Shown one piece after another: positions 1-37,371 of a DNA stretch of 64,000 nt (position 1 is its first letter; each line of letters starts with the position of its first letter). The stretch lies in NCBI RefSeq assembly GCF_006345805.1, contig NC_042997.1, forward strand, positions 151,900,001 through 151,964,000. The letters are read 5' to 3'. Made by a program: the position numbers and the translations under genes. Source of the DNA: Octopus sinensis (Eukaryota). Under the pieces are notes generated by a model. The model saw only the letters and a program-made list of their open reading frames with translations. It was not told the DNA's origin and did not search any database.

Positions 1-2757
1 TGGGTGATGTTGATGAGTAAGAACTTAAAAGAGAAGTGGCGTGAGAGAATTAGTGAAACAAATGCGAAGTGGAGGAAGATAGAATTAGAGAGGAGAGAGA
101 ATGTGCTATGAGTCAACCACTTGAATATAAGGCAGGCATAGAATGTGTATTTTTTACTGGAGATGGTGTGAGGAGTAATAAGTCGGAAGTAAAAGACAGC
201 GTGAATGGAGTGTGAAACGGAAGAAAAGGGGAGAAAGCTAAAAATCGATTCATTTAGTGGCCGTATTCACCGCCATCGCCATCATCACCACTACCACCAT
301 CTATCTTCACCTTTCTTTTTGAGCACTACCTCCTTCTCCTGCCCGGTTTGCGACAAAGACTCTGTCTATCATTCTCACACTACTTCACACTCAAACTTAT
401 ACCTCATCTCCTCACACCATCATCACATCACTCTTTCACTTCAGCTTCTTCCTCATTTACTTGATTACGATCAAAGTGACAACACAGCTTCCTCTCTCAT
501 TTCCTTATACGCAAAGGTTAGAACCAAACTGTTGCCTTCTTCAGTCCTCAGGCAAATCAATATGTCGAACTCTTCCAAGTAGTCGTTTATGGGGAAGTTT
601 TTATCCCTTTCACCATTTATTTTGGATCCCGAATTTTACCGAAGAAAAAAATTACACGATATCACAAAGTGATACGTATCTTATTTTATCGCAAAAAAAA
701 GTAGACCAAGATACAGAAAGTGCTGTCTTGTTTTAAATGATTTTTCTGTAGAAAATTACATTCCACGATAACAGAAATTGGCTTCTATCTGATTCTGCAA
801 AAACAAATATAAAAATTATCGAACTTTCTGAAACTTGTAGCAAATCCTACTTCTCAAATTATAACAATGCGATGTACCAATTATATTTTCAGATATATTG
901 ATTCCTTATATAGACACGAGGTCAGAAATTTATCAAGGAAGAAAATTAGATTGTTAAACACTCGTGACTATCTCAAAGGTTTCATTGAAGTGAATTTGTT
1001 TCAACTGGGAATCAAAGCCGGTTTTCCGTCGGCTCACTGGGAACTCACCTCTTGATTTACGATGCTCGCTACATCCGTTGAGATAAATAAAATTGCATTA
1101 ACTGACAATGAGAAACATTAATATTTGTTGAAACCCTTAAAAATTATTTGATCTTCCATTAACAGAAATAGATGCATTGGGCTGGGAAGCTAATTTCGAG
1201 AACCCTTCGAATAAAAGCTTTTAAAAATAATATAGAAATATGGCTACATTTCTGTTCTCATGTGTATAGCATTTTATGACCAGCCTATTAGACGCTTCGG
1301 CATCAGCAAACGAAAAGACTGTGGTAACCTAAGGGTCATGATTCGACTCCGACCATTATCTATACTCCTTTGAAAATTACCGGTTTCGTAAGCATAACAA
1401 TCATTAATCATTCCATTACTACATCCAATTGTGTATATTTGTATTTATATGCCTGTATAACACGCACCCACACACACATACATACATACACACACATATA
1501 TAAATATGTATGTATGTATGTATGCGTGGATGTATATAACGTATATGTTTGTATTTATGTGTGCATGTTTCTGTCTGTATCAGAGTATGCAAGTATATTA
1601 TAGAAAAATCGTTTATATTAATATGCGCATTTGTCTAAATGTTTTATAGCAATATGTATGTGTGTTTATATAACATATATATGCATACATATGAATGTAC
1701 ATACAAAAAACATATATTTATGCATACATATACGTGTGTGTGTTTGTGCGCGTATAATATATATATATTTATTTATATATATATATATATATATAAGCGT
1801 GTGGTGTGTGTGTGCCCATGTATTTGCGGATGTAAAATAGAGAATAAATACAAATGGACCTACCTTCAACATCCTCCCACTTCTCTTACTCTTACATAAT
1901 TGGAAGATATTTCTGATCCAGTACTAAGCAAAACATTACCAAACGAAAACAAAAGAAAGCTTTTCCTCTATATATTTTCCACTACAACCTAACTTCCAAT
2001 AACTGAAATAATTGGATTTCTTGTATACCTATAAGTGGGATCGCATCTTTATTGCATTTTTGGGGGTGGGGCAGAAAAACTAATTTTGGATTGCGTACAA
2101 CGCGTAGGTCGGTCAAAGAAGTTTCTAAAAACATGTTAGATCAACAAAAAAGTTTAAAATCATTTATATAACAACGTTAACTTCCTAGCACCAGTAGTTT
2201 CTAGTATACTTGAGCCAGCCGTTATTTAATCGATTAATGGAGTAAACAAACTGAATAAAAAATAACTAACTCAATGTACTTCTTTATTAGTAGTGTGTGT
2301 CTGAGGTGGGTGATAGTATTAGAGAACTTAGCGTAATTTGAAAATATTAATCTATTCCTAATAGGGAGACGAGGTTATAAATTGTTAAGTAGAATCGATT
2401 ATATCTGCCCAGAACGTCATAGGTACTTATTTGATCAACCTCGGAATGATAAAAGGCGAAACAGATTTCGAACTCAGAGCGTAAATCAATGTGACTAATT
2501 ACTTCGATTCTGCCAATTTTATACCATTAAAAATATTCTTTTCTATTCTAGGCACAAGGCTCGAAATTTGGGGGGAGGGCGCCAGATGCGGCATAATCGA
2601 ATGTATTGCCAAACCGTCGATTTCTGGACTCAACAGCAGGTTATTAATTGTGATATTTATTTGCAGGGATAAGATATTTTGCTGTTAGATTGCTATAGGG
2701 ACAAGTGTTGTTATGGTTATGTTTGTATGTTGTTATGGTTAAGTTTATATTGCGTAT

Positions 2758-2975
2758 ACTCTTTTACTCTTTTACTTGTTTCAGCCATTTTGAGTGTGGC
2801 CATGACGGAGCACCGCCTTTAGTCGAGTAAATCTACCCCACGACTTATTCTTTGCAAGCCCAGTACTTATTCTATGGGGGGGGGTGCCGAACCGCTAAGT
2901 TACGGGGACGTAAACACATCGGTTGTCAAGCGATATTGGCGGGACAAACACAAACTTATACACACACATACATAT

Positions 2976-3010
<35 letters not shown>

Positions 3011-3161
3011 GCATATATACGACAGGCTTCTTTCAGTTTACGTCTACCAAATCCACTCAGAAGGCTTTGGTCGACCCGAGGCTATAGTAGAAGACACTTG
3101 CCCAAGGTGCCAAGGTGCCAGTGGGACTGAACCCGGGACCATGTGGTTCGTAAGCAAGCTA
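2758..3161 (-). mobile_element. tRNA-derived SINE, family A (internal CA/TA microsatellite, AAAAGAGT tail)
   Basis: Near-identical to copies at 28801-29220, 35444-35816 and 42208-42611; minus strand has B-box-like GGTTCAGTCCC and ends AAACAAGTAAAAGAGTAAAAGAG. Confidence 0.9.
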
Positions 3162-3559
3162 CACACACATACATACATATATATATACGCACACATGTAC
3201 ACCCATTCAGTCATCCATTGAATTTTAAGGCTGTTGTTAGACATATGAATGAGTGAATGAATGAATGAATGAATGAATGAATGAATCTATACAGCGTCTA
3301 TCTAAATAAGTTACCATCTTCAACATAATGGAGTGTGTCCTAGAGTGGAAGTTTTCGATCGAGAACCGTCACTATGAAGTAAAATTCTTGCTTCACTAGA
3401 GAGCGAGCAGAATTGTGAAACAAATTAAACATATAATTCAATTCAGCGTAATGCCATTATTATTGGTCTTGCTGTACAGCTCCCAAATCAATCCTGATCA
3501 AGCAGATCTAATTACTGTTGTTATTGTTGTTGCTGTTGTCGTCGTCGTTGTCATTGTGA

Positions 3560-3760
3560 AGCTCTAGGTCATTCCTGGTCGAGAAAGCTACAATAAATAT
3601 TACTCTTGCCGTGACCATACATTTTTTTTTTTACAGATATAGTTTTCAGACTACTACATACATAATAAATAAATAAATAAATAAAGATTATTGGTCGTGA
3701 TTTGTGATGGATTTGGGTGTTATTTCTCAACGATGAAGTAATCACGTGAAGTTTAGCTCA
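3560..3760. repeat. Degraded interspersed repeat, family D
   Basis: Similar to about 12700-12890, 43400-43560, 52355-52570 and, inverted, 42118-42715 (motifs GTGACCAT, GACTACAT, GATTTGG.TG.TATTTCT). Confidence 0.5.
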
Positions 3761-3929
3761 TTCACTTGGTAGAATGATGACCTAATCTCCCAAAACTACA
3801 AGGTAAATGGCCTGAAAGAGATTTGGTTTCATATTGGTGGAAGAAATCGGCATATATGGCTACCATCATTTAAGCAAACATGAGTAAAAGAAAATCCATT
3901 TGTATCTGGTTCCCAATTGATGTTTTCAA

Positions 3930-5445
3930 CAATAAATACACGGCAGAGATGCAAATATATATAGGGTGGTATAGATGAGACAGGAGCCTTTATGGAAGAG
4001 GAGGGTTGGGATGAAAGGAGGAAGTGTGAGTCGTTTTACGTTTTCGACGTTTGCTCTCTGCTTCTTAATTTTTATTTTCCATCTTTTGACAATGACACAC
4101 CGCCACTCAAGGCGATCTTTCATGATTGTCTCCCAAGTATTTGGGTCAGTGCAGCAGCGGAGGTTAGTAGCCTTAAGCTGGTCTCAGAAACTGAATTTGG
4201 GGGCTGCACGTGGTCTGGTGCCTGAGGCCAATTCTGCAAAGGGGAGTTTAAGACGAAGGCACATTTGAAGCATACGCATAATGTGTCCTGACCAGTGGAT
4301 GTAGTGGCGTACCCTGGCAGCTTCAATGCTGGGCTTGAAGCTGAACCTCTTCATTGGTAAGTACTTCCATCGAATCTGCACGATTGCGCAAAGTGTGTGC
4401 TGTGGCAATAGTTCGATTTTTTTCAAGCTACGTCGATCCAGCCTTCACCTCTCAAATTCATAGAGGAGTGTGGAAAGGGCAACAGCTCGAACTACCTTGC
4501 TTTTCCTTGGGATTGTGACGTCGTGGTTTAAGAAAACTCGTTTTGAGAGTTTTCAGAATGCAGTATTGGCTGCGCTGATCCTATTTTCGACGTCTTTCTG
4601 AATGGTGCAATAGGTGGACAAGTAGTTTACGAGGTATGGGAAATCCTCCACGGTTCCTAGGGCAGTGCTATGTAGCCTTATGCCACTGGTGTCTGGAGGA
4701 AGCTGGCTAAGGGGCTCCCTGTGCAAGGATCTTTATCTTCATAAGGTTTTCAGTCACACCAAAACAGGTATACAAATTTTCGAAGAGGTTCACAGCATCC
4801 TGAATATCGGATGCGCGGATCTGGCATTGTCTTCAGCGTATTGCAGCTCAAGTATTTTAGCCAAGGTGATAAGTCGACGGGTTATGAAGCGGGCGGTGTT
4901 GAAAAGTTCTCTATCCATTGTGTAACAGATGTCTACTCCAGGAGCCAGATCAAAGATTTCATATATTATGGTCCCGAGGTAGAAGAAAAACAAAGTGGGA
5001 TCGAGAATGTATCCCTGTTCCAGGTCAGTAGTAATTGGGAAGGAACTAGAGAGAACGTTCTTAGTGATGACCTGACTAAACATTCTGTCATGTAGGTCCT
5101 GGGTGAAGTTCGTTAATGGATGAGGATAACGGAAACGCCTCGTGGTGGCTCATATTGCAGGTTCCGGTATGTTGTCAAAAGCTTTCTTCAAGTCCAAGAA
5201 CACAAAAGTTAGTGGCTTTCTCTGCCCTCGTGCCTTTTTCTAGAGAATGTCAGCGCAAAAGTCCATGACGATGGTGCTACGGATGAGATAGAAGCCGCAC
5301 TGCGACTGTCAAAGAACTTCCTTAGCAGTGACTACTAATCTATCTAGTAGGATTCTGGCGATATTGAGAAGGGAGAAATGGCGATAGTTTCTGTAGATTG
5401 TCTCTTTCTTGAAAACTATAATGATGGTTGCGTTTTTAAGGTCCG
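3930..5445 (-). mobile_element. Decayed RTE-clade (BovB/RTE-1-like) LINE, RT and C-terminal region
   Basis: Minus-strand peptides NYRHFSLL, EQGYILDPTLF (cf. KQGCVLAPTLF), ELQYAED (cf. ELLFADD), SIEA...WSGHIMRM...ELASGTRPRAAPK; many frameshifts. Confidence 0.9.
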
Positions 5446-5839
5446 TGCATGTGTTATGTGCTTGTCGCTCGAGAATTGGAGTTGGTCTGATTATCAGACT
5501 TAAAAAAAAAAATAACTATTGGGTCGATGGGACGATTTGATCGACTGAAGCATTTTAAGTGGTACAACAGAATGGAGACAATCTCTAGCACTGATAAAGT
5601 TCTAACTATGGCCATGACAGTACGTATTAGTATATCTAGGACAGCTTAATTGAATGAGGCCTTCTTTTTTAAGCTGGTAAGCCATGATTTTAGAAAGATT
5701 TGACTGTTACTTCCAGACAGTAGAAGACACATGCCCAAGGTGCCACGCAGTGGGACTGAACCCAGAACAATGTGGTTGATAAGTAAGCTACATACCACAC
5801 AGCCACTCGTGTGCCTGTTGTTGATTTCCCATCTCTCTA

Positions 5840-6030
5840 GAGGCCCCAATATCGATTTAAAAAAAATCTAAGTAGCCTATGTTCGGGTGAGAGATAAAAA
5901 GCAGCTGTGTATAAAATTTTAAAGAAATCGGATGAAAAATGTAGAAGTTATTGAGGTACATTAAATTTGTGTATACACACACAAAAACACACAGAAAAAA
6001 TCTTCAATTTTATAGATATTAGATTAGATA
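5840..6030 (+). mobile_element. Lep1/Helentron-like non-autonomous rolling-circle element, 3' fragment
   Basis: AAGTAGCCTATG...AAATTTTAAAGAAATCGG...CACACAGA...TTTATAGATATTAGAT resembles the Lep1-type 3' end (recalled, not aligned). Confidence 0.45.
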
Positions 6031-6518
6031 TAGTTAAGCAGCTTTTTTGTGATAGTAGTTAGATCATAAAAACATGCATAGTACGCATATAGATCCAGTT
6101 AAATCCTATAAATTTATTTTCATGAAATTTGAAAAATTATTGCAAGAACATTTTGGTCATATATCGAGTAGGCATTATACCATATTGCAATAGAGAGGCG
6201 TAGGCATTTCTGGTTATGACGTTTGCTTCGCAACTATATTGGTCCAGGTTCGCACGTACAACACGGTACATTATCCAAGTGTCCTTTAGCCATACATAGC
6301 CTGGAGGAGTTTGGCTAGTTGAAACCGTGCTGAGTTTCTCTTGTGTCGCTTATCAATTCAGTTTTGATGCTTAACATCAAATATAACATAACTATTACAT
6401 GATTTCTACCTGCTAAACTCCGAGTAGTAAGAGATTATGTTCTGCTCTAGAATAAGTATTTATATTCTACTTCTTGAAATTTCCAGTTGTATACCAGGGA
6501 TGTATTTTTCCCCTCTGG

Positions 6519-6831
6519 AAGGCTTAGGGGTTAGGGTATTCGGCTTGCGATCCTAAGGTCGTGAGCTCCTTTCCCGGCAACGCGTTGTGTCTTTGAGCAA
6601 ATCACTTTATTTTACGTTGCTCCAGTTCACTCAGCTGGCAAAAGTAAGTAGTACCTTATTTCAAAGAGCCATCCTTGTCACTCTCTGTGTCACGTTGAAT
6701 TTCCCTGAGAACTACGTTAAGAGTACACTTGTTTATGGAGTGCTGAACCACTTGCACGTTAATATCACGAGCAGGCTGTTCCGTTGGCCAAATCAACTGG
6801 AACTCTCATTGTTGTAACCGACGGAGTGCCA
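6519..6831 (+). mobile_element. tRNA-derived SINE family C (CORE-like body) with tail X
   Basis: TTGAGCAAATCACTTTATTTTACGTTGCTCCAGTTCACTCAGCTG body shared with 7924 and 41540; 3' tail ending GACGGAGTGCC shared with 34128-34493. Confidence 0.8.
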
Positions 6832-6864
6832 CATTTTCCCCTCTGTTTAAGTTATATAAAATTC

Positions 6865-7077
6865 AAGGCGGAAGCTGGCAGAAACGTTAGCACGTCGAGC
6901 AAAATGCTTGGGGACATTTCGTCCGTCTTTATGTTCAGAGTTCAAATTCCGTCGAGGTTGACTTTGCCTTTCATCCTTCCGGAGTCGATAAAATAAATAG
7001 TTATTGACTACTGCGGTCGATGTAATCGACTTATCCGTTCCCCTGAAATTGCAGGCCTTGTGCCAAAACTTCAAATC
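6865..7077 (+). mobile_element. SINE family B
   Basis: AAGGCGG.AGCTGGCAGAAACGTTAGC head and GCCTTTCATCCTTCCGGAGTCGATAAA body, as in 57283, 58167, 60018 and 61021. Confidence 0.85.
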
Positions 7078-7923
7078 AATTTACATAAACATGAAATCGG
7101 AGCTAATCAGTAATTTAGAATTTAACCAGTAATTAAGAAGTTAATATACGACTTGCAGCTTAGAATCACGTGTCCTTTATTATATTGCTCCAGGTTTGTA
7201 TCTAAGAGTTCTAAGGTTTGTATCTAGGTGTTTGTATCTAAGTGTTCTAACTTAAATAATTCTAAAGGTATTTTTCGCTACCTTTCTAAAACATATATTA
7301 TGATAATATTACAAAGTTACAGCCTTGTTTCCTGACATGTTACTAGCTAATATAAACCAGCCACACGTTTTGCCAACAAACTCCTTTTCATTTTGAGTCT
7401 AAACTATTAACTCCTTTTAGTTCAATAGAGACTGGCGAAGGAAATACTCACCGAGGAATATATATGCCCTACAAAGTACCCTTTGTTACAGCCTTGTTAA
7501 AATTAGTAGCAAAGCAATCTGTAGCTGATTAGTTGCGCACTTTCGGTGATGAAATAACTGGTTTCACTAAACCTTTTATATACCTCCTTATATATGCATA
7601 CTTGTATTAATACAGGCACAACACCATTAAGTACAACTCCAGCACACATGCATTTAGCGAGAGGATGCAAACTGTTAATTCATAAGCTGCAAATGTTCAC
7701 GATATAAGGAACAATAAAAATCTGAAAGACGTTCTTGAGATTTAAAGGAAGATGGGTAAAACAAAATACTTTCCATCACAACCTTGTTACAAAGTAGGCG
7801 GCCGATCAAAATTTAATCTAGATTAAAAAGCGAAAGAGAAAAACATACATACATAAATACATATATACGTACATACATACGTATGCACGATAGTATGTAT
7901 GATGTATTCATATATGTTCAAGT

Positions 7924-8246
7924 GAAGGCGCATGGCTCAGTGCTTAGAGCGTAGATCTTACGACTGTGAGATTGTGAGTTCGATTCCCGAACCGGGCTGC
8001 GTGTTGTGTTCTTGAGCAAGACACTTTATTTCCCGTTGCTCCAGTTAACTCAGCTGTAGAAATCAGTTGCGACATCACTAGTGCCAAGCTCTCTCGGCCT
8101 TTGCCTTTCCCTTGGAAAACATCAGTGGCGTGGAGAGAGGAGGCTGGTATGCATTGGCGACTGCTGGCCTTCCACTAACAGCCTTGCCCGGAATCGTGCC
8201 TCGGAGGGTAACTTTCTAGGTATAATCCCATGGTCTCCAAGGCGTC
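7924..8246 (+). mobile_element. SINE family C (CORE-like body) with tail Z
   Basis: A-box TGGCTCAGTG, B-box GAGTTCGATTCC, CTTGAGCAAGACACTTTATTTC body; homologous to 61395-61700. Confidence 0.85.
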
Positions 8247-8259
8247 TCCAAGTATGTTC

Positions 8260-8309
8260 ATATACATATACATACATACATACACACACACACACACCAC
8301 ACACACACA

Positions 8310-8387
<78 letters not shown>

Positions 8388-8764
8388 TATATATATATAC
8401 ATACATATATAATGTAGTAGTGATTATGTTCACTACAACAGCCAACGATTGTAGCCAACACACAAGACAGCCATTATGTTCCCACACATAAAACTCTACC
8501 AAATGGACTCTGTTGAAACTAGTAAGAAATAGTTATGAACTTTTCTTTTAATACACTTTACTTTTATAAATATATATTTTTGATAAGGTTCGTTTTTTCA
8601 AGAAGAGCCGAAACATATAAAATCTCTCAGAAAATTAAATTTTATCTTATATAGTGGTGTTTTCAAACTTCTTTTTTTATAAATATATACCCACTTGTAT
8701 GCCACCTACACTTTTTATAAATATACACATATACATATATATATATATACATACTTACATATAT

Positions 8765-8819
<55 letters not shown>

Positions 8820-9412
8820 TATACATACGTACATACATACATACATACATACATACATACATACCCATCCATATTACACATACGTATGTGTTTGTATGTT
8901 GAGTTCAAAATCAGTATACATTGAATAATAAACATATTTACTTAGTTATACAAATATTTATAGCAAACACGGATTCATCCAAACGCATAGTCATATATGA
9001 TTATGCGTTTCTGTATGTGTGTGTCTGCGTATCTATATTTCCACGCAAACAAACGTATGCATATGCAGATATATATACATACACACAGACACATATGTTT
9101 GTGTATGCTATTATCTCTTTACGTCTGTGTTTCTGTCTTTCCCAGTGTGTAATGCGTATATATAAGCATATGTGTATGTGTGGGTATATATATATGTGTG
9201 TGTATATGTTTATGTATATGCATACAGAGAAAGGGGTGAAGAGGAGAAAGAGGGGAGACAAAGAGTTACAAAGCGAATAGGAAATTGAAGAGATAGAATA
9301 GTGTACACACATACATACATACATACAGTGTGGATATATACACGCATATATATATATATATACGTATGTATGTATATATATATATAGATATATATGTATG
9401 TATGTATATAAT

Positions 9413-9456
<44 letters not shown>

Positions 9457-9462
9457 CATATG

Positions 9463-9494
<32 letters not shown>

Positions 9495-9895
9495 CATACA
9501 TACATACATACATATATACACATTCAAATACACACAGAAACACCCATACATACAAAAAAATATACACACACACAAGCACGCGCACCTATATCGCCATATA
9601 TTCATGAAGTTCAGTATGAATATATGTACGTACCGTCTTGTATGCATTAAACTATATTTGAGCAATGGGTGTGTAGGTTTGTTTCTATAAACCGAATTTA
9701 ACTATGTGCATCTACATTTTTTATGTACGGAGTTATTACTTTACCAATAAATTTCTAACAGCCTCTATACATTTCATGTGAAAGATATATAGTGTATATT
9801 GAATTAGAACCAATACGCAACCACGACGTCATATATACCCACATCTGTCTTTATGCATAGCTATGTATACGCACACGCATATATATATATATATT

Positions 9896-9934
<39 letters not shown>

Positions 9935-10739
9935 ATACATATATATATATGTTCATATCTATATATACGTTTATATATTGTGCGTACTTATATATTAAAC
10001 ATACTTATGTATATAAACAGACGCATATATACATACATGCGTACAAAGACTTCTTTCAAAACGGTACCTTAATGCTTCCTATCACCCTCTCTTCTTTATA
10101 TTACTCTTTCTGTTATTACCCTCTATCAATCTTTCTTCCTCTCATCTCTTATACTCTTCCTCTCTTCCAGGCTCTCTCACATCACTCATACCATTCGATT
10201 CCCAGTCCTCTCTCAATCATTTTACGGTTCCATCAATATTTATTTCTTTGCAGCTGATTAGGCATCTGACATGACATTATGGCAACGAGGGATTCTGTGT
10301 CGCAGTCTTGTAGTGGGTCGTAAATCGAATCCAACCAATAGATGCAAGAGCAAACAGTTCTCTGCAGTGGAACTCAAGGGTTATATATACACAATTTTCC
10401 TCCATTCTTCTGTCGCCATTTTATGCTGTATTTTACTCACTATCTATTAAAGCTTAATTTTTGTGTCTATTTTCTATTTTTCTTGTTTTTGTTTTGGTGT
10501 TACTTTTGAAGGCGGTTGTTCTTGTGTGGTAGCATTAGATTGTGTTTTTAACTGTGTGTGCGTGTATGTATTCGTATATACATACATACACATATGCATA
10601 TATATATATACACACACAAATATACATAAGTCTATCTATCTATTTATCTATCTCCTTCTCTCTCTCTCTCTTTTCTTTCTCTCTCTTTCTCTCTATCTCT
10701 CTATCTATCTATCTATTTCTATATCTATATCTATATATG

Positions 10740-10810
<71 letters not shown>

Positions 10811-10986
10811 TGTGTGTGTGTATGTATGTATGTATATACATACATACATATGTATATATATATATGTGAGTGTGTGTATAGGATTGGTTCAGAAAAAAAC
10901 ATAGATTGATAGATAAATAGATAGATAAATAGATTGATAGATTGATAGATAAATATATAGTTAGATAGATTGATATATATATATAA

Positions 10987-11059
<73 letters not shown>

Positions 11060-11416
11060 CAGACAGTCGGTGAGACAAATGAAGTAATATGGAGTCTATT
11101 TTTTACAGTCATTTCGCTCCTTTATATTTTCTTTCCATTTCTCTCTCTCTCTCTCTCTTCTTGTCTCCACTCTTTTCTTTTATTCTTTTTCTATCCGCCT
11201 GTCTGTCCGTCTGTCCATGTCTCTTTTGCACTTCTATTTTTTTTAGTCGTTATATATTCATTCATTTCTGTTCTGTATTCTCTCAGTTGGCTATTTTTAT
11301 CTCCTATTGTTAAAGATTTATATTATTTTTTTTTTGTTCTGAGGAATCTCTGCCCCTCTCTTTGTACCCCTCTAACCTAATAACGCACGTGCGTTCGTGA
11401 GCACATACATGTACAC

Positions 11417-11482
<66 letters not shown>

Positions 11483-11700
11483 ATACATGCACCCATGCAA
11501 TATATATAAATGCATATAAATATATATGCAAGTATATGCGTATATATATATATATATATATACACAGATACATACATATACATATGCATATATACACATA
11601 TATAAACACATACACACACTCAAACAAACACACACATACACACATATAAATATATATATATGTATGTGTTTATGTATGTGTGTATGTATGTATGTATGAA
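8260..11700. repeat. Dense compound microsatellite field: (CA)n, (TA)n, (TACA)n, (TAGA)n, (CT)n
   Basis: Directly visible; explains the YIYI/THTH/CVCV ORFs. Confidence 0.95.
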
Positions 11701-11805
11701 TGAACGAATGTATGCAGAATGGACGTTTATTTATTGAGGATTTTTCTCATTTTTTTCCGTTCTGTATACTTAGTTTGGAACAATGGTTTTCCTAAATCCA
11801 TTAGT

Positions 11806-11849
11806 CCATTAACGTTTCAGGACCTTGGCGGCCTCATCATCAGAATAGG
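11806..11849 (-). ncRNA. Minimal type I hammerhead-like motif (degenerate)
   Basis: Minus strand CCTATT-CTGATGA-TG-AGGCC-GCCAA-GGTCCT-GAAACGTT-AATGG. Confidence 0.5.
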
Positions 11850-12252
11850 TCGCAAAGGATCAGCGAAATACTGCTACAACTGATAAAATCGTCAACGCCC
11901 GATTTAAAAATTATAGATCATTTACGTCCTGCTAGATTTCGTGATTTATTTTACGTGCGATGTAACTATTTGTTGATTTTTCCCCCGTTTTTTCAATTTA
12001 TTTGCTTATTTATTTATTTATCTATTTATTTATTTATTTCGTGAAAATCTATATGAAACTGTTGAGTTGTCATCTAATGCTTCTCTGTCTTATTTTATTG
12101 TATGTAGTGATTTTAAACAAATTACGACGCCTTCTTACTGCATGTAAATTTGCAACTTCCTCGCTTACATCTAAATTTTGTTATTCTGTCGGTTGGTTGA
12201 GTGATATAGTTATGTGGTTTGCTTGTTTGTGGTTCCAGTCGGGATCAATCAT

Positions 12253-34493: not shown

Positions 34494-34934
34494 ACACACA
34501 TACGCACACATATATATATGTTATTTTATATTATATTATAGTATATTATATTATATTAATATTCAATTGATGGTTAGCTTAAATACTACTCACAGCTATT
34601 GTCAAGTGCTCCATCATATAGCAAGATCGTTCAGAATATATTTGGTAAATAAATATTTCTATGTCTGCAACGCAACAGTACTGCCGATTGTCGTCGGTGG
34701 AGATAGTGACTCACCAGCTAGACAGATTCTCATTTATCGAGAATGTCACAGGGTCGGATATGTGACAGAGCAGAAATGTCTCTATTCCCGACTTGACAAA
34801 GAATTATTTCTATAGTGTTAAATCACTTACAAAAGTAATGTAACTCTTTCTTTTGATTAGCTACAAGTCCTCAGACGTGTGAGTTTTTCATATGAATCAT
34901 ACATATGGCTTTTGCAAAGCAATTATTTTCTATC

Positions 34935-35258
34935 TTTTCTTTTATCTTTGTCTCGTTTCAGTCATTAGACTGCGACCATACTGGAGCAACGCCTTGAGGA
35001 ATTTTTAGGCGAATGAATCGATCCCAGTACCTTTTTCTCAGCCGGGTACTTATTCTGTTGGTATTTTTTGCGGAATTGCAAAGTTACGGAAACGTAAACA
35101 CACGTCAAGCCATAGTGGGGGACAAACAGACACAGAGACACACATAGATATATGCATATACAACGGGCTTCTTTCAGTTTTCCCTCCAGCAAATCCTCTC
35201 AAAAGACTTTAGCTTGCTATAGGAAAAGCAACGTTCTTACCATACAGCCACCCGCGCC
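34935..35258 (-). mobile_element. SINE family A, diverged and internally deleted
   Basis: Collinear with other A copies. Confidence 0.8.
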
Positions 35259-35285
35259 GACACACAGCCACTCCTTCGTGATTTA

Positions 35286-36670
35286 TTCACAGCAGAGAGG
35301 GAAATGGAGCAAAAAGAGACACAAAGTGGAGAGACAACGGAAGACAACAAAAAAGAGAAGGAAAAAGAACATTAAGGAAAGAACAGCGAAAACAAGGAAA
35401 AGGAAATAACGGAGAAACAACAAGAGAAAGGAAGTAACAACACACTCTTTTACTCTTTACTCTCTTTTACTTGTTTCAGTCATTTGACTGCTGCCATGCT
35501 GGAGCACCGCCTTTAGTCGAGCAAATCGACCCCGGGACTTATTCTTTGTAAGCCCAGTACTTATTCTATCGGTCTCTTTTGCCTAACCGCTAAGTGACGG
35601 GGACGTAAACACATCAGCATCGGTCAAGCAATGCTAGGGGCACAAACACAGACACACAAACATATACACGCACACTTATATATATATACATATATACGAC
35701 AGGCTTCTTTCAGTTTCCGTCTACCAAATCCACTCACAAGGCATTGGTCGGCCCGGGCCTATAGCAGAAGACACTTGCCCAAGGTGCCACGCAGTGGGAC
35801 TGAATCCGGAACCATGAAGGAAAATGAAAACAAAGGGAAGAAAATAATAGAAAAGGAACAAAATTCACAGGGTAGAGAAGTAATAGAGAAAGAACCAAAA
35901 CAGAAGCAAGAGAAAGAAAAGGAAAGTACATTAAAGGAAAGAGAAAAAACAGGAAAAGAACAAGAGAAAGAACAGAACCAAGAGAAAGGAAAATATAGTA
36001 TACAAAAAGGAAAAGAAACAACAGGAAAGGAACATAAGGCACAGGGTAGAGAGACGACAGACAAAGAGCCAAAAAGACAAGAGAAGGAAAAAAAAGAAGA
36101 GAAAGCAAAAAGAGAGAAAGAGAGAAACCGAGGGAGGAGAAAAAAGAGGAAGTAAGTCCAAAGAGAAAAACTAGAGAAAATGCAGGTACGAATAGAAGAT
36201 TCAGATACTATGGAACATTGATCCATCACAGGCACTGTGAGGAGATGGAAGATTTAATAAGCGAAACAGATGGATATACATGGGTCAGGATGGGCACCGA
36301 ATGGAAAGAAGCGGGTGCACTCGTCCACCAGAACAACGCCGAGGCGTTCATCGAAGCAGCTGGCAAGAACGTGTCAAAACATATGAAATGCCGACTTACA
36401 AGGTGGCCACGAACGATGGAAAGTTACAAGATTTGGTAGAGATAATGGAGTATATATAAAAGAAAAGGTATTGTGAAAACTTTAATTTGGAAATGATAAA
36501 AAGAACTCTAAATTCTGAAAAAAAAAAAATGGTGAACTTTGTAAAATTTTTGAAATGTATGTTGAAAATGTGTAAAATGTTTTTATTTGGAAAACATTGT
36601 TAACGAATAAATGACGAAATGTAACCACTCGATTTCGGGGATCGAGTGGGCATTACACCACATTGTACAA
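35286..36670 (+). mobile_element. TSD-flanked retroposed insertion encoding a K/E-rich protein remnant
   Basis: Exact 16-bp direct repeat ACTCCTTCGTGATTTA at 35270-35285 and 36671-36686; AATAAA 36606-36611; terminal hairpin 36625-36649. Confidence 0.8.
35444..35816 (-). mobile_element. SINE family A, 5'-truncated, nested in the K/E element
   Basis: Nearly identical to 28801-29177. Confidence 0.92.
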
Positions 36671-37371
36671 ACTCCTTCGTGATTTAAGTGAATTAAAAGA
36701 GTATCAGTCTTAAACCAAAATTGTTTTGTGGAAACCATATATTAGCCAACTAGGCTACTGTTCCATGCCAGACTCTTATATGCTACAGCATCACACAATA
36801 ACCTTGTCTTCCACAGACGTACCAGCCTTATAATTTTAACGAAACCAGTATTTTACAGGGTAAACTTTATACTCTCACACAGAAATCTATCTTATCATAA
36901 ATATATTGAAAGATATATGTAACCAGGTGTATATTGATTAATGAGGTATCAAAATATAAAATTTCTATATGAGTTTAAAATGTACGATTAATACTACAGC
37001 TGCTTTCTGATTCATTTCCAGAAAATATCTTTTTGTCGCACAATTTTTTAGGTTTTTATTTTTGTAATTATTTTTATTATATGTCATTTTTGACACTTTA
37101 TTCCCAGATAAAGTAGAAATGAAATTATGTAAGTTTTACTTTTGTAAGAGCATTCCAGCACAATTTAAGAAAAAAAAGGAAAAGAAATGTTCTATAAGAT
37201 TCATTAAATCTAACAAGAAGGAATAAGTTTTTCTACCTTGAGCAAAAGAGAACTCATAAAACTTTCCGGTAACTGAAAATGTTATGTATGTTTGTTTGTT
37301 TTTTCTCTCTTCTCCTCCAAATTTCACGAAATGTTCGCAGGCAGACATTTCACTAAATTAAACTGATTTTC

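What the first reader, a model, noticed from the sequence alone, without database searches (positions are those of the whole stretch)
35270..36686. 16-bp TSD-flanked insertion coding a K/E-rich non-RT protein and ending in a hairpin
Seen: exact TSD ACTCCTTCGTGATTTA. Inside, about 1 kb (after removing a nested SINE) reads as a repetitive K/E-rich peptide (GKKIIEKEQNSQGREVIEKEPK versus GKETTGKEHKAQGRETTDKEPK). After one frameshift it continues into a complex domain (NRRFRYYGTLIHHRHCEEMEDLISETDGYTWVRMGTEWKEAGALVHQNNAEAFIEAAGKNVSKHMKCRLTRWPRTMESYKIW, stop 36439), then a 3'UTR with AATAAA and a 9-bp stem CCACTCGAT/ATCGAGTGG about 20 nt from the end, with no poly(A). Inference: a 5'-truncated product of target-primed reverse transcription whose last ORF is not an RT. 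Candidates are an ORF1-only (HAL1-like) non-autonomous retroposon, a LINE with an extra 3' ORF, or a retrocopy of a lineage-specific gene that uses a LINE-type 3' stem-loop.
Basis: partly seen in the sequence, partly recalled or inferred. Interest (0 to 1): 0.72.

Follow-up and report, generated by a model that had tools for sequence, protein, structure and literature searches.

The report
Truncated octopus half-LINE (ORF1-only) copy
This is a dead, doubly truncated copy of an abundant octopus jumping gene that keeps only the first (nucleic-acid-binding) gene of a LINE and is likely copied by the enzyme of a full LINE with which it shares its last 50 bases; the way of life is already known from mammals and flies, so the copy itself is ordinary.

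Summary
An exact 16-bp duplication (35270-35285, 36671-36686) brackets a 1,385-bp insertion that carries a nested SINE (35447-35814), a K/E-rich repeat, a frameshift, a complex C-terminal domain and a 9-bp hairpin.

The insertion is one copy of a high-copy, 1.93-kb retroposon (here "A"). A encodes a single ORF of about 490-530 aa: a LINE-ORF1-like part with a CCHC knuckle, a K/E-rich spacer, and an ~85-aa domain found only in octopus. It has no endonuclease or reverse transcriptase.

A shares its first ~32 nt and last ~50 nt with an L1/Tx1-like LINE ("B": ORF1 plus ORF2 with APE, RT and zf-RVT). B often lies head-to-tail directly downstream of A.

The window copy lacks A's first ~850 nt. It also lacks the last 77 nt, which include the shared tail. 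Reverse transcription therefore likely started internally on the RNA (inferred).

The C-terminal domain is under purifying selection and is predicted to be ferredoxin-like. The hairpin shows compensatory changes.

Verdict: a new member of a known kind (HAL1- or HeT-A-like half-LINE). Interest is moderate to low.

The parts
35270..35285 (.). Left copy of the 16-bp target-site duplication ACTCCTTCGTGATTTA
   Evidence: Exact; 2 matches in the window against 0 expected.
35286..35446 (+). First piece of the half-LINE (A) fragment. It starts just after the CCHC-knuckle codons (...FTAE) at the beginning of the K/E-rich region and carries a subfamily-specific 24-bp insert near 35330.
   Evidence: Aligns to positions ~852/872-987 of a 1,931-bp full-length copy. 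Matches L003 and L022 from query position 16.
35447..35814 (-). Nested SINE, a later insertion. Its orientation and tRNA-like head at the right-hand end are read from the sequence and are inferred.
   Evidence: Absent from 28 of 29 other copies, which join 35446 to 35815 directly. Contigs of 3 of the 4 runs laid skip 35445->35815.
35815..36163 (+). K/E-rich low-complexity spacer of the A ORF, with internal 93-nt and 72-nt repeats. A 1-bp deletion near 36093 shifts the frame.
   Evidence: Intact copies read through in one frame.
36164..36459 (+). C-terminal domain (CTD) coding region, found so far only in octopus. A 1-bp deletion near 36428 gives a premature stop at 36437-36439; the canonical stop would be at 36457-36459.
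   Evidence: tblastn hit at window 36164-36430, 87% identical to an intact copy..
36460..36670 (+). 3' UTR, cut 77 nt before the family's true 3' end. It holds AATAAA at 36606-36611.
36625..36649 (+). Conserved 9-bp stem with a 7-nt loop in the 3' UTR.
   Evidence: 93.5% of cells paired across 31 distinct copies. 4 of 9 pairs change on both sides. 0 of 500 shuffles reach the covariation score. Slid controls pair at 32-49%. Fold z = -3.0.
36671..36686 (.). Right copy of the TSD. Its first 3 nt (ACT) equal the next 3 nt of the canonical element, so there is a 3-nt microhomology at the 3' junction.

Best explanation
The insertion at 35286-36670 is a dead copy, truncated at both ends, of a 1.93-kb ORF1-only non-LTR retroposon (a 'half-LINE'), which is likely mobilised in trans by the endonuclease/reverse transcriptase of an L1/Tx1-like LINE with which the family shares its termini.

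Shown:
- The family has hundreds of copies.
- Full-length copies sit between their own TSDs of 13-16 bp and carry one ORF: an ORF1-like part with a CCHC knuckle, a K/E-rich spacer and a CTD. They have no EN or RT.
- Their last ~50 nt and first ~32 nt match the LINE that often lies directly downstream.

Inferred:
- The LINE's ORF2 protein recognises the shared tail and copies half-LINE RNA by target-primed reverse transcription.
- For the window copy, which lacks the tail, the nicked target likely primed internally on the RNA at a 3-nt ACT microhomology 77 nt before its 3' end.
- Synthesis then stopped early, just 3' of the knuckle codons.
- A SINE and two 1-bp deletions came later.
For: Copy number: 508 first-look candidates for the 3' 521 bp. 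All 40 scored rows matched, and the 39 other than the window itself are 91-95% identical. There are 437 candidates for the CTD; 150 were scored.

Full-length standalone copy: 1,931 bp between a 13-bp TSD (L023). Other dispersed copies have TSDs of 15 bp (L012, L014) and 16 bp (L017, 5'-truncated).

ORF: intact frames of 495-536 aa in about 21 of the 150 scored copies, and 136 of 150 CTD matches have no stop. zf-CCHC is found in 8 of 8 N-terminal parts scanned. The A ORF is 32% identical over 121 aa to the LINE's ORF1, E 5e-21.

No RT: 0 of 42 loci of diverged lineages show the CTD followed directly by the start of ORF2.

Partner LINE: ORF2 of 1,132 aa with Exo_endo_phos, RVT_1 and zf-RVT. Its best solved relative is human L1 ORF2p, E 5e-61 over residues 7-868. 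Among 146 scored copies, 24 have open frames of at least 1,128 aa.

Shared ends: 48 of 51 terminal nt are identical between A and B, and 27 of 32 at the 5' end. The tail is present in 28 of 29 other copies and absent from the window copy.

Window copy: it matches A positions ~852-1854 of 1,931 at 94.4% identity. Of 82 genomic copies holding the exact 23-mer before the break, 80 continue canonically, one has a 1-bp deletion but keeps the tail, and only the window copy ends there.
Against: Mobilisation by the LINE was not tested; it rests on the shared ends and on analogy with LINE/SINE pairs.

The window copy lacks the very tail that the model says is needed. Its own insertion therefore needs an exceptional start (internal priming), another LINE's enzyme, or a DNA-level event.

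16 of 29 copies are followed head-to-tail by another element of the superfamily. Some amplification may therefore be of composite units or segmental duplications rather than single A insertions.

No sequencing run on record as RNA was found.

Pfam finds nothing in the ORF1-like part except the knuckle, so 'RNA-binding' is assumed from homology to LINE ORF1.
Confidence: 0.8

Rival explanations
1. A is not an element of its own. It is the 5' module of a three-ORF LINE (A ORF, B ORF1, B ORF2), and A-only copies are fragments of that unit.
For: In 14 of 29 loci a B-type ORF1 or ORF2 starts within 1.5 kb downstream of A. The A-B order is seen in all 5 extended loci. A and B share their first ~32 nt.
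Against: A ends in its own copy of the same 50-nt tail that ends B. A occurs alone between TSDs (L023, L017). Arrays such as A-A-A-B exist, and a 5'-truncated B can follow A (L059). TPRT of a three-ORF unit would leave 3' fragments, not A-only copies.
Confidence: 0.1
2. The window copy was inserted by the machinery of an unrelated LINE, or captured at a staggered break. A partial A transcript or cDNA was the template, and the family's own partner played no part.
For: The copy lacks the shared tail. Its end point is unique among 82 copies. The genome holds other active LINE clades (RTE, Dong-R4, CR1) according to PMC13282606 (passages).
Against: The 16-bp TSD lies within the range of TSDs of canonical A copies, 13-16 bp. 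Another copy (L003) is also cut inside the tail, so incomplete 3' ends occur within the family.
Confidence: 0.25
3. It is a retrocopy of a lineage-specific host gene that happens to carry a LINE-like 3' stem-loop.
For: The only database proteins with the CTD are annotated as uncharacterised or hypothetical Octopus vulgaris proteins.
Against: The genome holds hundreds of copies with shared ends and their own TSDs. The N-terminal part is homologous to the LINE's ORF1. No intron-bearing parent was seen. The annotated proteins have the same CCHC, K/E and CTD layout and look like gene calls on element copies.
Confidence: 0.02

Closest known systems
HAL1 (half-L1) of mammals. Recalled from Bao & Jurka 2010, which I did not read. 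PMC5753468 and PMC5786205 were seen only in the search listing.
   Same: A non-autonomous LINE derivative that keeps ORF1, lacks ORF2 and depends on a related autonomous LINE.
   Different: HAL1 derives from poly(A)-tailed L1 with a coiled-coil/RRM/CTD type ORF1. The octopus element has a CCHC-knuckle ORF1, no poly(A), a specific 50-nt tail shared with its partner, and an extra C-terminal domain with no detectable relatives outside octopus.
HeT-A with TART/TAHRE at Drosophila telomeres. Recalled; PMC1636488 was seen only in the listing and abstract start.
   Same: A Gag/ORF1-only non-LTR element that relies on an RT-bearing relative and forms head-to-tail arrays mixed with it.
   Different: HeT-A arrays are at chromosome ends. 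The octopus arrays lie inside chromosomes (for example C12 at 25 Mb of 80 Mb), and dispersed single copies with TSDs also exist.
Stringent-type LINE/SINE pairs that share a 3' tail, such as the zebrafish LINEs (PMC4176376; listing and abstract start only).
   Same: A dependent element carries the partner LINE's 3' end, which the partner's ORF2 protein is thought to recognise.
   Different: Here the dependent element is 1.9 kb long and protein-coding, not a small-RNA-derived SINE. The window copy lacks the tail.
L1-Tx1 LINE families of Octopus vulgaris (PMC13282606, passages: 13 families, 421 recent insertions).
   Same: The partner LINE B (APE, RT, zf-RVT, ORF1 with CCHC) fits this annotated group. 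Named relatives of its ORF2 include 'Transposon TX1 149 kDa protein' and 'LINE-1 ORF2'.
   Different: The main text of that paper has no occurrence of 'ORF1' or 'non-autonomous', so the ORF1-only partner is not described there. Its supplements were not looked at.

Membership tests
Target-primed (non-LTR) retroposed insertion | Target-site duplication exactly at the borders of homology | tested here: met
   A 16-bp exact repeat sits at both borders. Homology to other copies ends within 3 nt of it.
Target-primed (non-LTR) retroposed insertion | 3' end common to all copies, 5' ends variable | tested here: not met
   This holds for the family: 28 of 29 copies have the tail, and 5' ends vary (L003, L017, L022). 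The window copy ends 77 nt short of the common 3' end.
ORF1-only non-autonomous LINE derivative (half-LINE, HAL1-like way of life) | Encodes a homologue of a LINE ORF1 | tested here: met
   32% identity over 121 aa to B ORF1, E 5e-21. zf-CCHC in 8 of 8.
ORF1-only non-autonomous LINE derivative (half-LINE, HAL1-like way of life) | Full-length element lacks endonuclease and reverse transcriptase | tested here: met
   The 1,931-bp copy between TSDs holds only the A ORF. There is no ORF2 match inside A in any locus.
ORF1-only non-autonomous LINE derivative (half-LINE, HAL1-like way of life) | Shares its 3' end with an autonomous LINE of the same genome | tested here: met
   48 of 51 terminal nt are identical to the LINE's tail. 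24 of 146 scored LINE copies have open ORF2 frames of at least 1,128 aa.
ORF1-only non-autonomous LINE derivative (half-LINE, HAL1-like way of life) | Mobilised in trans by the partner's ORF2 protein | not testable with these tools
   Needs a retrotransposition assay.
HAL1 proper (mammalian L1-derived) | L1-type ORF1 (Transposase_22) and poly(A) tail | tested here: not met
   Pfam finds only zf-CCHC. Copies end in ...AATAAAACAA, not poly(A).
L1/Tx1 clade (for partner LINE B) | N-terminal APE endonuclease, RT, C-terminal zinc-binding region; closest to L1-type ORF2 | tested here: met
   Exo_endo_phos, RVT_1 and zf-RVT. Human L1 ORF2p E 5e-61, against R2 at 1e-22.
L1/Tx1 clade (for partner LINE B) | Placement inside the Tx1 group in an RT phylogeny with reference elements | not tested
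   No reference LINE set was at hand. The only support is relatives' names.
RRM / ferredoxin-like fold (for the CTD) | beta-alpha-beta-beta-alpha-beta sandwich with a specific structural relative | tested here: inconclusive
   The model (pLDDT 77.9, pTM 0.68) has that order of elements. Foldseek against the PDB gives no hit at E <= 0.001. VIA-align's best Z is 7.7 (YebC domain, 63 residues, 1.8 A), followed by many generic ferredoxin-like domains at Z 5-7. No RRM is among the 50 rows shown.

The most novel reading that the evidence does not exclude
The half-LINE is more than a deletion derivative. It has gained a private module: a ferredoxin-like C-terminal domain under purifying selection, together with a covarying 3'-UTR hairpin that the partner LINE lacks. 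The two may act as a protein-RNA pair that packages the half-LINE's own transcript and delivers it to the partner's reverse transcriptase, making the element a specialised parasite of a parasite.
Probability: 0.2. Interest if true: 0.55.

Novelty: new member of a known kind. Interest (0 to 1): 0.35.

Why it matters
ORF1-only LINE derivatives are known from mammals (HAL1) and flies (HeT-A). This family shows the same strategy in a mollusc, within an L1/Tx1-like lineage that uses a specific 3' tail rather than poly(A). It also has an added conserved domain and hairpin whose roles are open.

Many copies of both partners are intact: about 21 of 150 scored half-LINE frames and 24 of 146 scored LINE ORF2 frames. 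The pair is therefore a usable natural system for asking what ORF1 proteins contribute to trans-mobilisation.

The window copy adds one small point. A member of the family was inserted without the shared tail.

Tried and rejected
Sequence searches for the CTD outside the family:
- The word-indexed search of 5.8 billion proteins gave 1 hit, an Octopus vulgaris protein.
- The exhaustive HMMER search of 1.84 billion representatives gave 9 hits at E <= 0.001. Five have the same CCHC, K/E and CTD layout and all five are O. vulgaris. The other four look like repeat-protein noise.
- A PDB profile search found only chance-level hits.
- The ESM Atlas gave no usable hit.
- hhalign of the CTD against the ORF1-like N-terminal part gave probability 0.1, so there is no sign of an internal duplication.

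Structure: the first AlphaFold run, with 16 close sequences, gave pLDDT 42.9 and was discarded. The second, with 22 more diverse sequences, was used.

Rfam: nothing near any gathering score, either in three family loci or in window 34900-36900.

Expression: no RNA holder was listed. Contigs of four runs guessed to be RNA cover A but not its flanks, and they join tail to 5' end. Because these runs are not on record as RNA, this says nothing about transcription.

Empty allele:
- Contigs of four runs were laid on window 34700-37300. No joint across 35285->36687 appeared among the rows shown; 648 joints were not shown.
- Contigs of two runs start at 36644 and run into the right flank. One contig of a third run spans 35167-35315.
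- These carry 27 and 30 letters on the element side, below the tool's 31-letter rule. Neither presence nor absence in other samples is established.

Site-specificity of the family: many loci share flanking repeats and junction motifs. However, L023, L017 and L012 sit at unrelated sites with ordinary TSDs. I could not decide between a preferred target and template-switch concatenation.

I at first took the motifs CATGGAGGAAA and TTCCAGTCT for TSDs. L023 shows that they belong to the elements' 5' ends.

Full report
WHAT IS IN THE WINDOW

The 16-mer ACTCCTTCGTGATTTA occurs exactly twice, at 35270-35285 and 36671-36686, against 0 expected by chance. It brackets 1,385 bp.

- The K/E-rich stretch contains two 93-nt units that are 71% alike.
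- A frame change leads into a complex domain, with a stop at 36437-36439.
- AATAAA lies at 36606-36611.
- A 9-bp stem (36625-36633 with 36641-36649) lies 21 nt before the end.
- There is no poly(A).

The window lies on a chromosome-scale contig of a 2.7-Gb genome. The only named database proteins that match come from Octopus vulgaris.

IT IS ONE COPY OF A LARGE FAMILY

The 3' 521 bp gave 508 first-look candidates in the window's own genome. All 40 scored rows matched, and the 39 other than the window itself are 91-95% identical.

I compared the 29 other loci fetched with the insertion. Three things followed.
- 28 of 29 join window 35446 directly to 35815. The 368 bp between are therefore a later nested SINE.
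- The other copies extend about 850 bp further upstream.
- All 29 also extend beyond the window copy's 3' end. In 28 of them this extension carries the tail ...GATTGTATTGTCCC.TCTATGT..GCCCCT.GTGGGTA..AATAAAACAA. The 29th, L003, is cut inside the tail.

One copy, L023, is a complete unit of 1,931 bp between a 13-bp TSD. Other dispersed copies have TSDs of 15 bp (L012, L014) and 16 bp (L017, which is 5'-truncated).

Against L023 the window copy covers positions ~852-1854 at 94.4% identity. It has a 24-bp subfamily insert near 35330 and 1-bp deletions near 36093 and 36428. These deletions explain the frameshift and the premature stop.

I also searched the genome for the exact 23-mer that precedes the break. 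Of 82 copies, 80 continue canonically. One has a 1-bp deletion but keeps the tail. Only the window copy stops there.

WHAT THE FAMILY ENCODES

Intact copies carry one ORF of about 490-536 aa. About 21 of 150 scored copies have open frames of at least 495 aa, and 136 of 150 matches to the C-terminal domain have no stop.

The N-terminal half ends in a CCHC zinc knuckle, which Pfam finds in 8 of 8 members (best E 1.2e-5). It is 32% identical over 121 aa to ORF1 of the neighbouring LINE (E 5e-21). Pfam detects nothing else there. An RRM, which I expected from recalled knowledge of LINE ORF1 types, is not shown.

After the knuckle comes a K/E-rich spacer whose length varies through internal repeats. 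An ~85-aa C-terminal domain (CTD) follows.

No endonuclease or reverse transcriptase lies within the unit.

THE PARTNER LINE

In all 5 extended loci, A is followed by a LINE that I call B. B has an ORF1 with a CCHC knuckle and an ORF2 of 1,132 aa with Exo_endo_phos, RVT_1 and zf-RVT domains.

B's best solved relative is human L1 ORF2p, with E 5e-61 over residues 7-868. R2 proteins reach only about 1e-22. Named relatives of ORF2 include 'Transposon TX1 149 kDa protein' and 'LINE-1 ORF2'.

A 2026 repeat annotation of O. vulgaris lists 13 L1-Tx1 families with 421 recent insertions (PMC13282606, passages). I did not run an RT phylogeny, so the Tx1 placement is provisional.

Of 146 scored B copies, 24 have open ORF2 frames of at least 1,128 aa.

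A and B share 48 of their last 51 nt and 27 of their first 32 nt. Between these ends their UTRs differ.

This is the anatomy of a non-autonomous element that keeps its partner's two ends. I infer, but did not test, that B's ORF2 protein recognises the shared tail and copies A RNA by target-primed reverse transcription.

HOW THE WINDOW COPY AROSE (INFERENCE)

The copy has a clean 16-bp TSD, within the family's range of 13-16 bp. It lacks the tail.

The first three bases of the right TSD (ACT) equal the next three bases of the canonical element. Two further bases of the next four also agree. The simplest account is that the nicked target strand annealed by microhomology 77 nt inside the RNA and primed there. 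Synthesis then ended early, just 3' of the knuckle codons.

Use of another LINE's enzyme cannot be excluded.

Later events were the SINE insertion and the two 1-bp deletions.

THE C-TERMINAL DOMAIN

The domain has no detectable relatives outside this family in four kinds of search.
- The word-indexed search of 5.8 billion proteins gave one hit, from O. vulgaris.
- The exhaustive search of 1.84 billion representatives gave five real hits. All are O. vulgaris hypothetical proteins with the same layout.
- Nothing was found among PDB sequences.
- Nothing usable was found in the ESM Atlas.

Repeat-masked gene sets of other cephalopods would hide it, so 'octopus-only' is a statement about databases.

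Within the genome there are lineages whose CTDs are only 33-68% identical to each other yet remain open. Nei-Gojobori dN/dS was finite for 13 of 14 pairs. It is 0.14-0.36 in 11 of them and about 0.6 in the other two. This indicates purifying selection on the domain in the lineages that gave rise to copies.

AlphaFold with 22 diverse sequences gave pLDDT 77.9 and pTM 0.68, with the element order beta-alpha-beta-beta-alpha-beta followed by a helix and a short strand.

Foldseek found no PDB match at E <= 0.001; its best rows are acylphosphatase, ACT, HMA and PII-like domains. VIA-align against 48,161 chains gave a best Z of 7.7 (YebC domain, 63 residues, 1.8 A). Many ferredoxin-like domains follow at Z 5-7, which the tool itself rates as a common arrangement.

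The fold is therefore likely a generic ferredoxin-like sandwich, and its function is open. hhalign shows no similarity to the ORF1-like N-terminal part.

THE HAIRPIN

The 9-bp stem is conserved in all A lineages examined. Across 31 distinct sequences:
- 93.5% of cells pair.
- 4 of 9 pairs show changes on both sides (for example U-A to C-G in 9 sequences).
- 0 of 500 shuffles reach the covariation score.
- Slid controls pair at 32-49%.

Because the copies are related, the shuffle count is not a probability. B's 3' UTR has a different stem. The hairpin is therefore a feature of the half-LINE, not the shared recognition tail.

ARRAYS

Of the 29 loci, 16 are followed within 1.5 kb by another element. 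In 14 this is B-type, in one a more distant LINE ORF1, and in one another A. In 11 loci another tail lies just upstream of A.

Arrays such as A-A-A-B occur on three contigs. A 5'-truncated B can follow A directly (L059). I could not decide between repeated insertion at a preferred site and template switching between RNAs.

EARLIER NOTES OF THIS SCAN

Other windows of the same genome were read as ORF1-only, HAL1-like Tx1 derivatives forming head-to-tail chains inside SINEs. These are unchecked AI notes. They agree with what I found independently, which were made before I saw them.

COMPARISON WITH WHAT IS KNOWN

The way of life matches HAL1 of mammals and HeT-A of Drosophila. Both are recalled; the papers were seen only in search listings.

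The element is not a member of HAL1 proper. It has no L1-type ORF1 and no poly(A).

Two octopus TE papers do not describe it in the parts I saw. PMC9115989 (passages) reports a single-ORF RTE element. PMC13282606 (passages) has no occurrence of 'ORF1' or 'non-autonomous' in its main text. I did not open either paper's supplements, and Repbase could not be consulted. A deposited consensus may therefore exist.

VERDICT

The family is a new member of a known kind, with an unexplained conserved domain and hairpin. The window copy itself is a dead fragment.

Noticed in passing
L035 (C18) 2402-9845; L037 (C14) 154-11883; L039+L040 (C5): Head-to-tail arrays of the form A-A-A-B: several half-LINE copies are followed by one full LINE, all in one orientation. 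Each unit ends in the shared tail and the next unit starts within a few bases.
   Followed up: partly
L013 (oriented) about 2106-2193; L059 about 34-1090: Very short or 5'-truncated units occur in tandem. One is a ~90-nt tail fragment of A right after a full A. Another is a B that begins at ORF2 residue ~251 right after an A tail. This looks more like template switching, or stacking at one site, than independent insertions.
   Followed up: no
Upstream flanks of L004, L006, L007, L009, L015, L025-L028; downstream flanks of L009, L010, L015, L021, L025, L028 and of L002, L004, L026: Many copies share the same flanking repeats on one or both sides. One downstream flank carries a tRNA-like GGTTCGAGTC...CTCGAAC motif. 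This suggests a preferred landing site in another repeat, or duplication of whole blocks.
   Followed up: partly
window 34960-35269 and 35447-35814: Two copies of the same SINE family lie here, both apparently on the minus strand: one just upstream of the TSD and one nested in the insertion. In other genomic copies the nested one continues past 35814 with TGGTTGGTAAGCAAGC... (loose ends), so it is truncated at its head.
   Followed up: no
L003 (oriented) about 2071: A second family copy has an incomplete 3' end. It is cut about 28 nt before the canonical terminus and is also 5'-truncated at A position 779.
   Followed up: no
L054, L055 against L034: The K/E-rich spacer varies in length between intact copies (ORFs of 504, 517, 528 and 536 aa) through gain of internal repeat units.
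   Followed up: no
G000, 146 scored loci: The partner LINE is abundant: 41,937 first-look candidates for 261 aa of RT, which will include other LINE families. Among the 146 scored copies, 24 have ORF2 frames of at least 1,128 aa. Several lie 3-4 kb from half-LINE copies listed.
   Followed up: no
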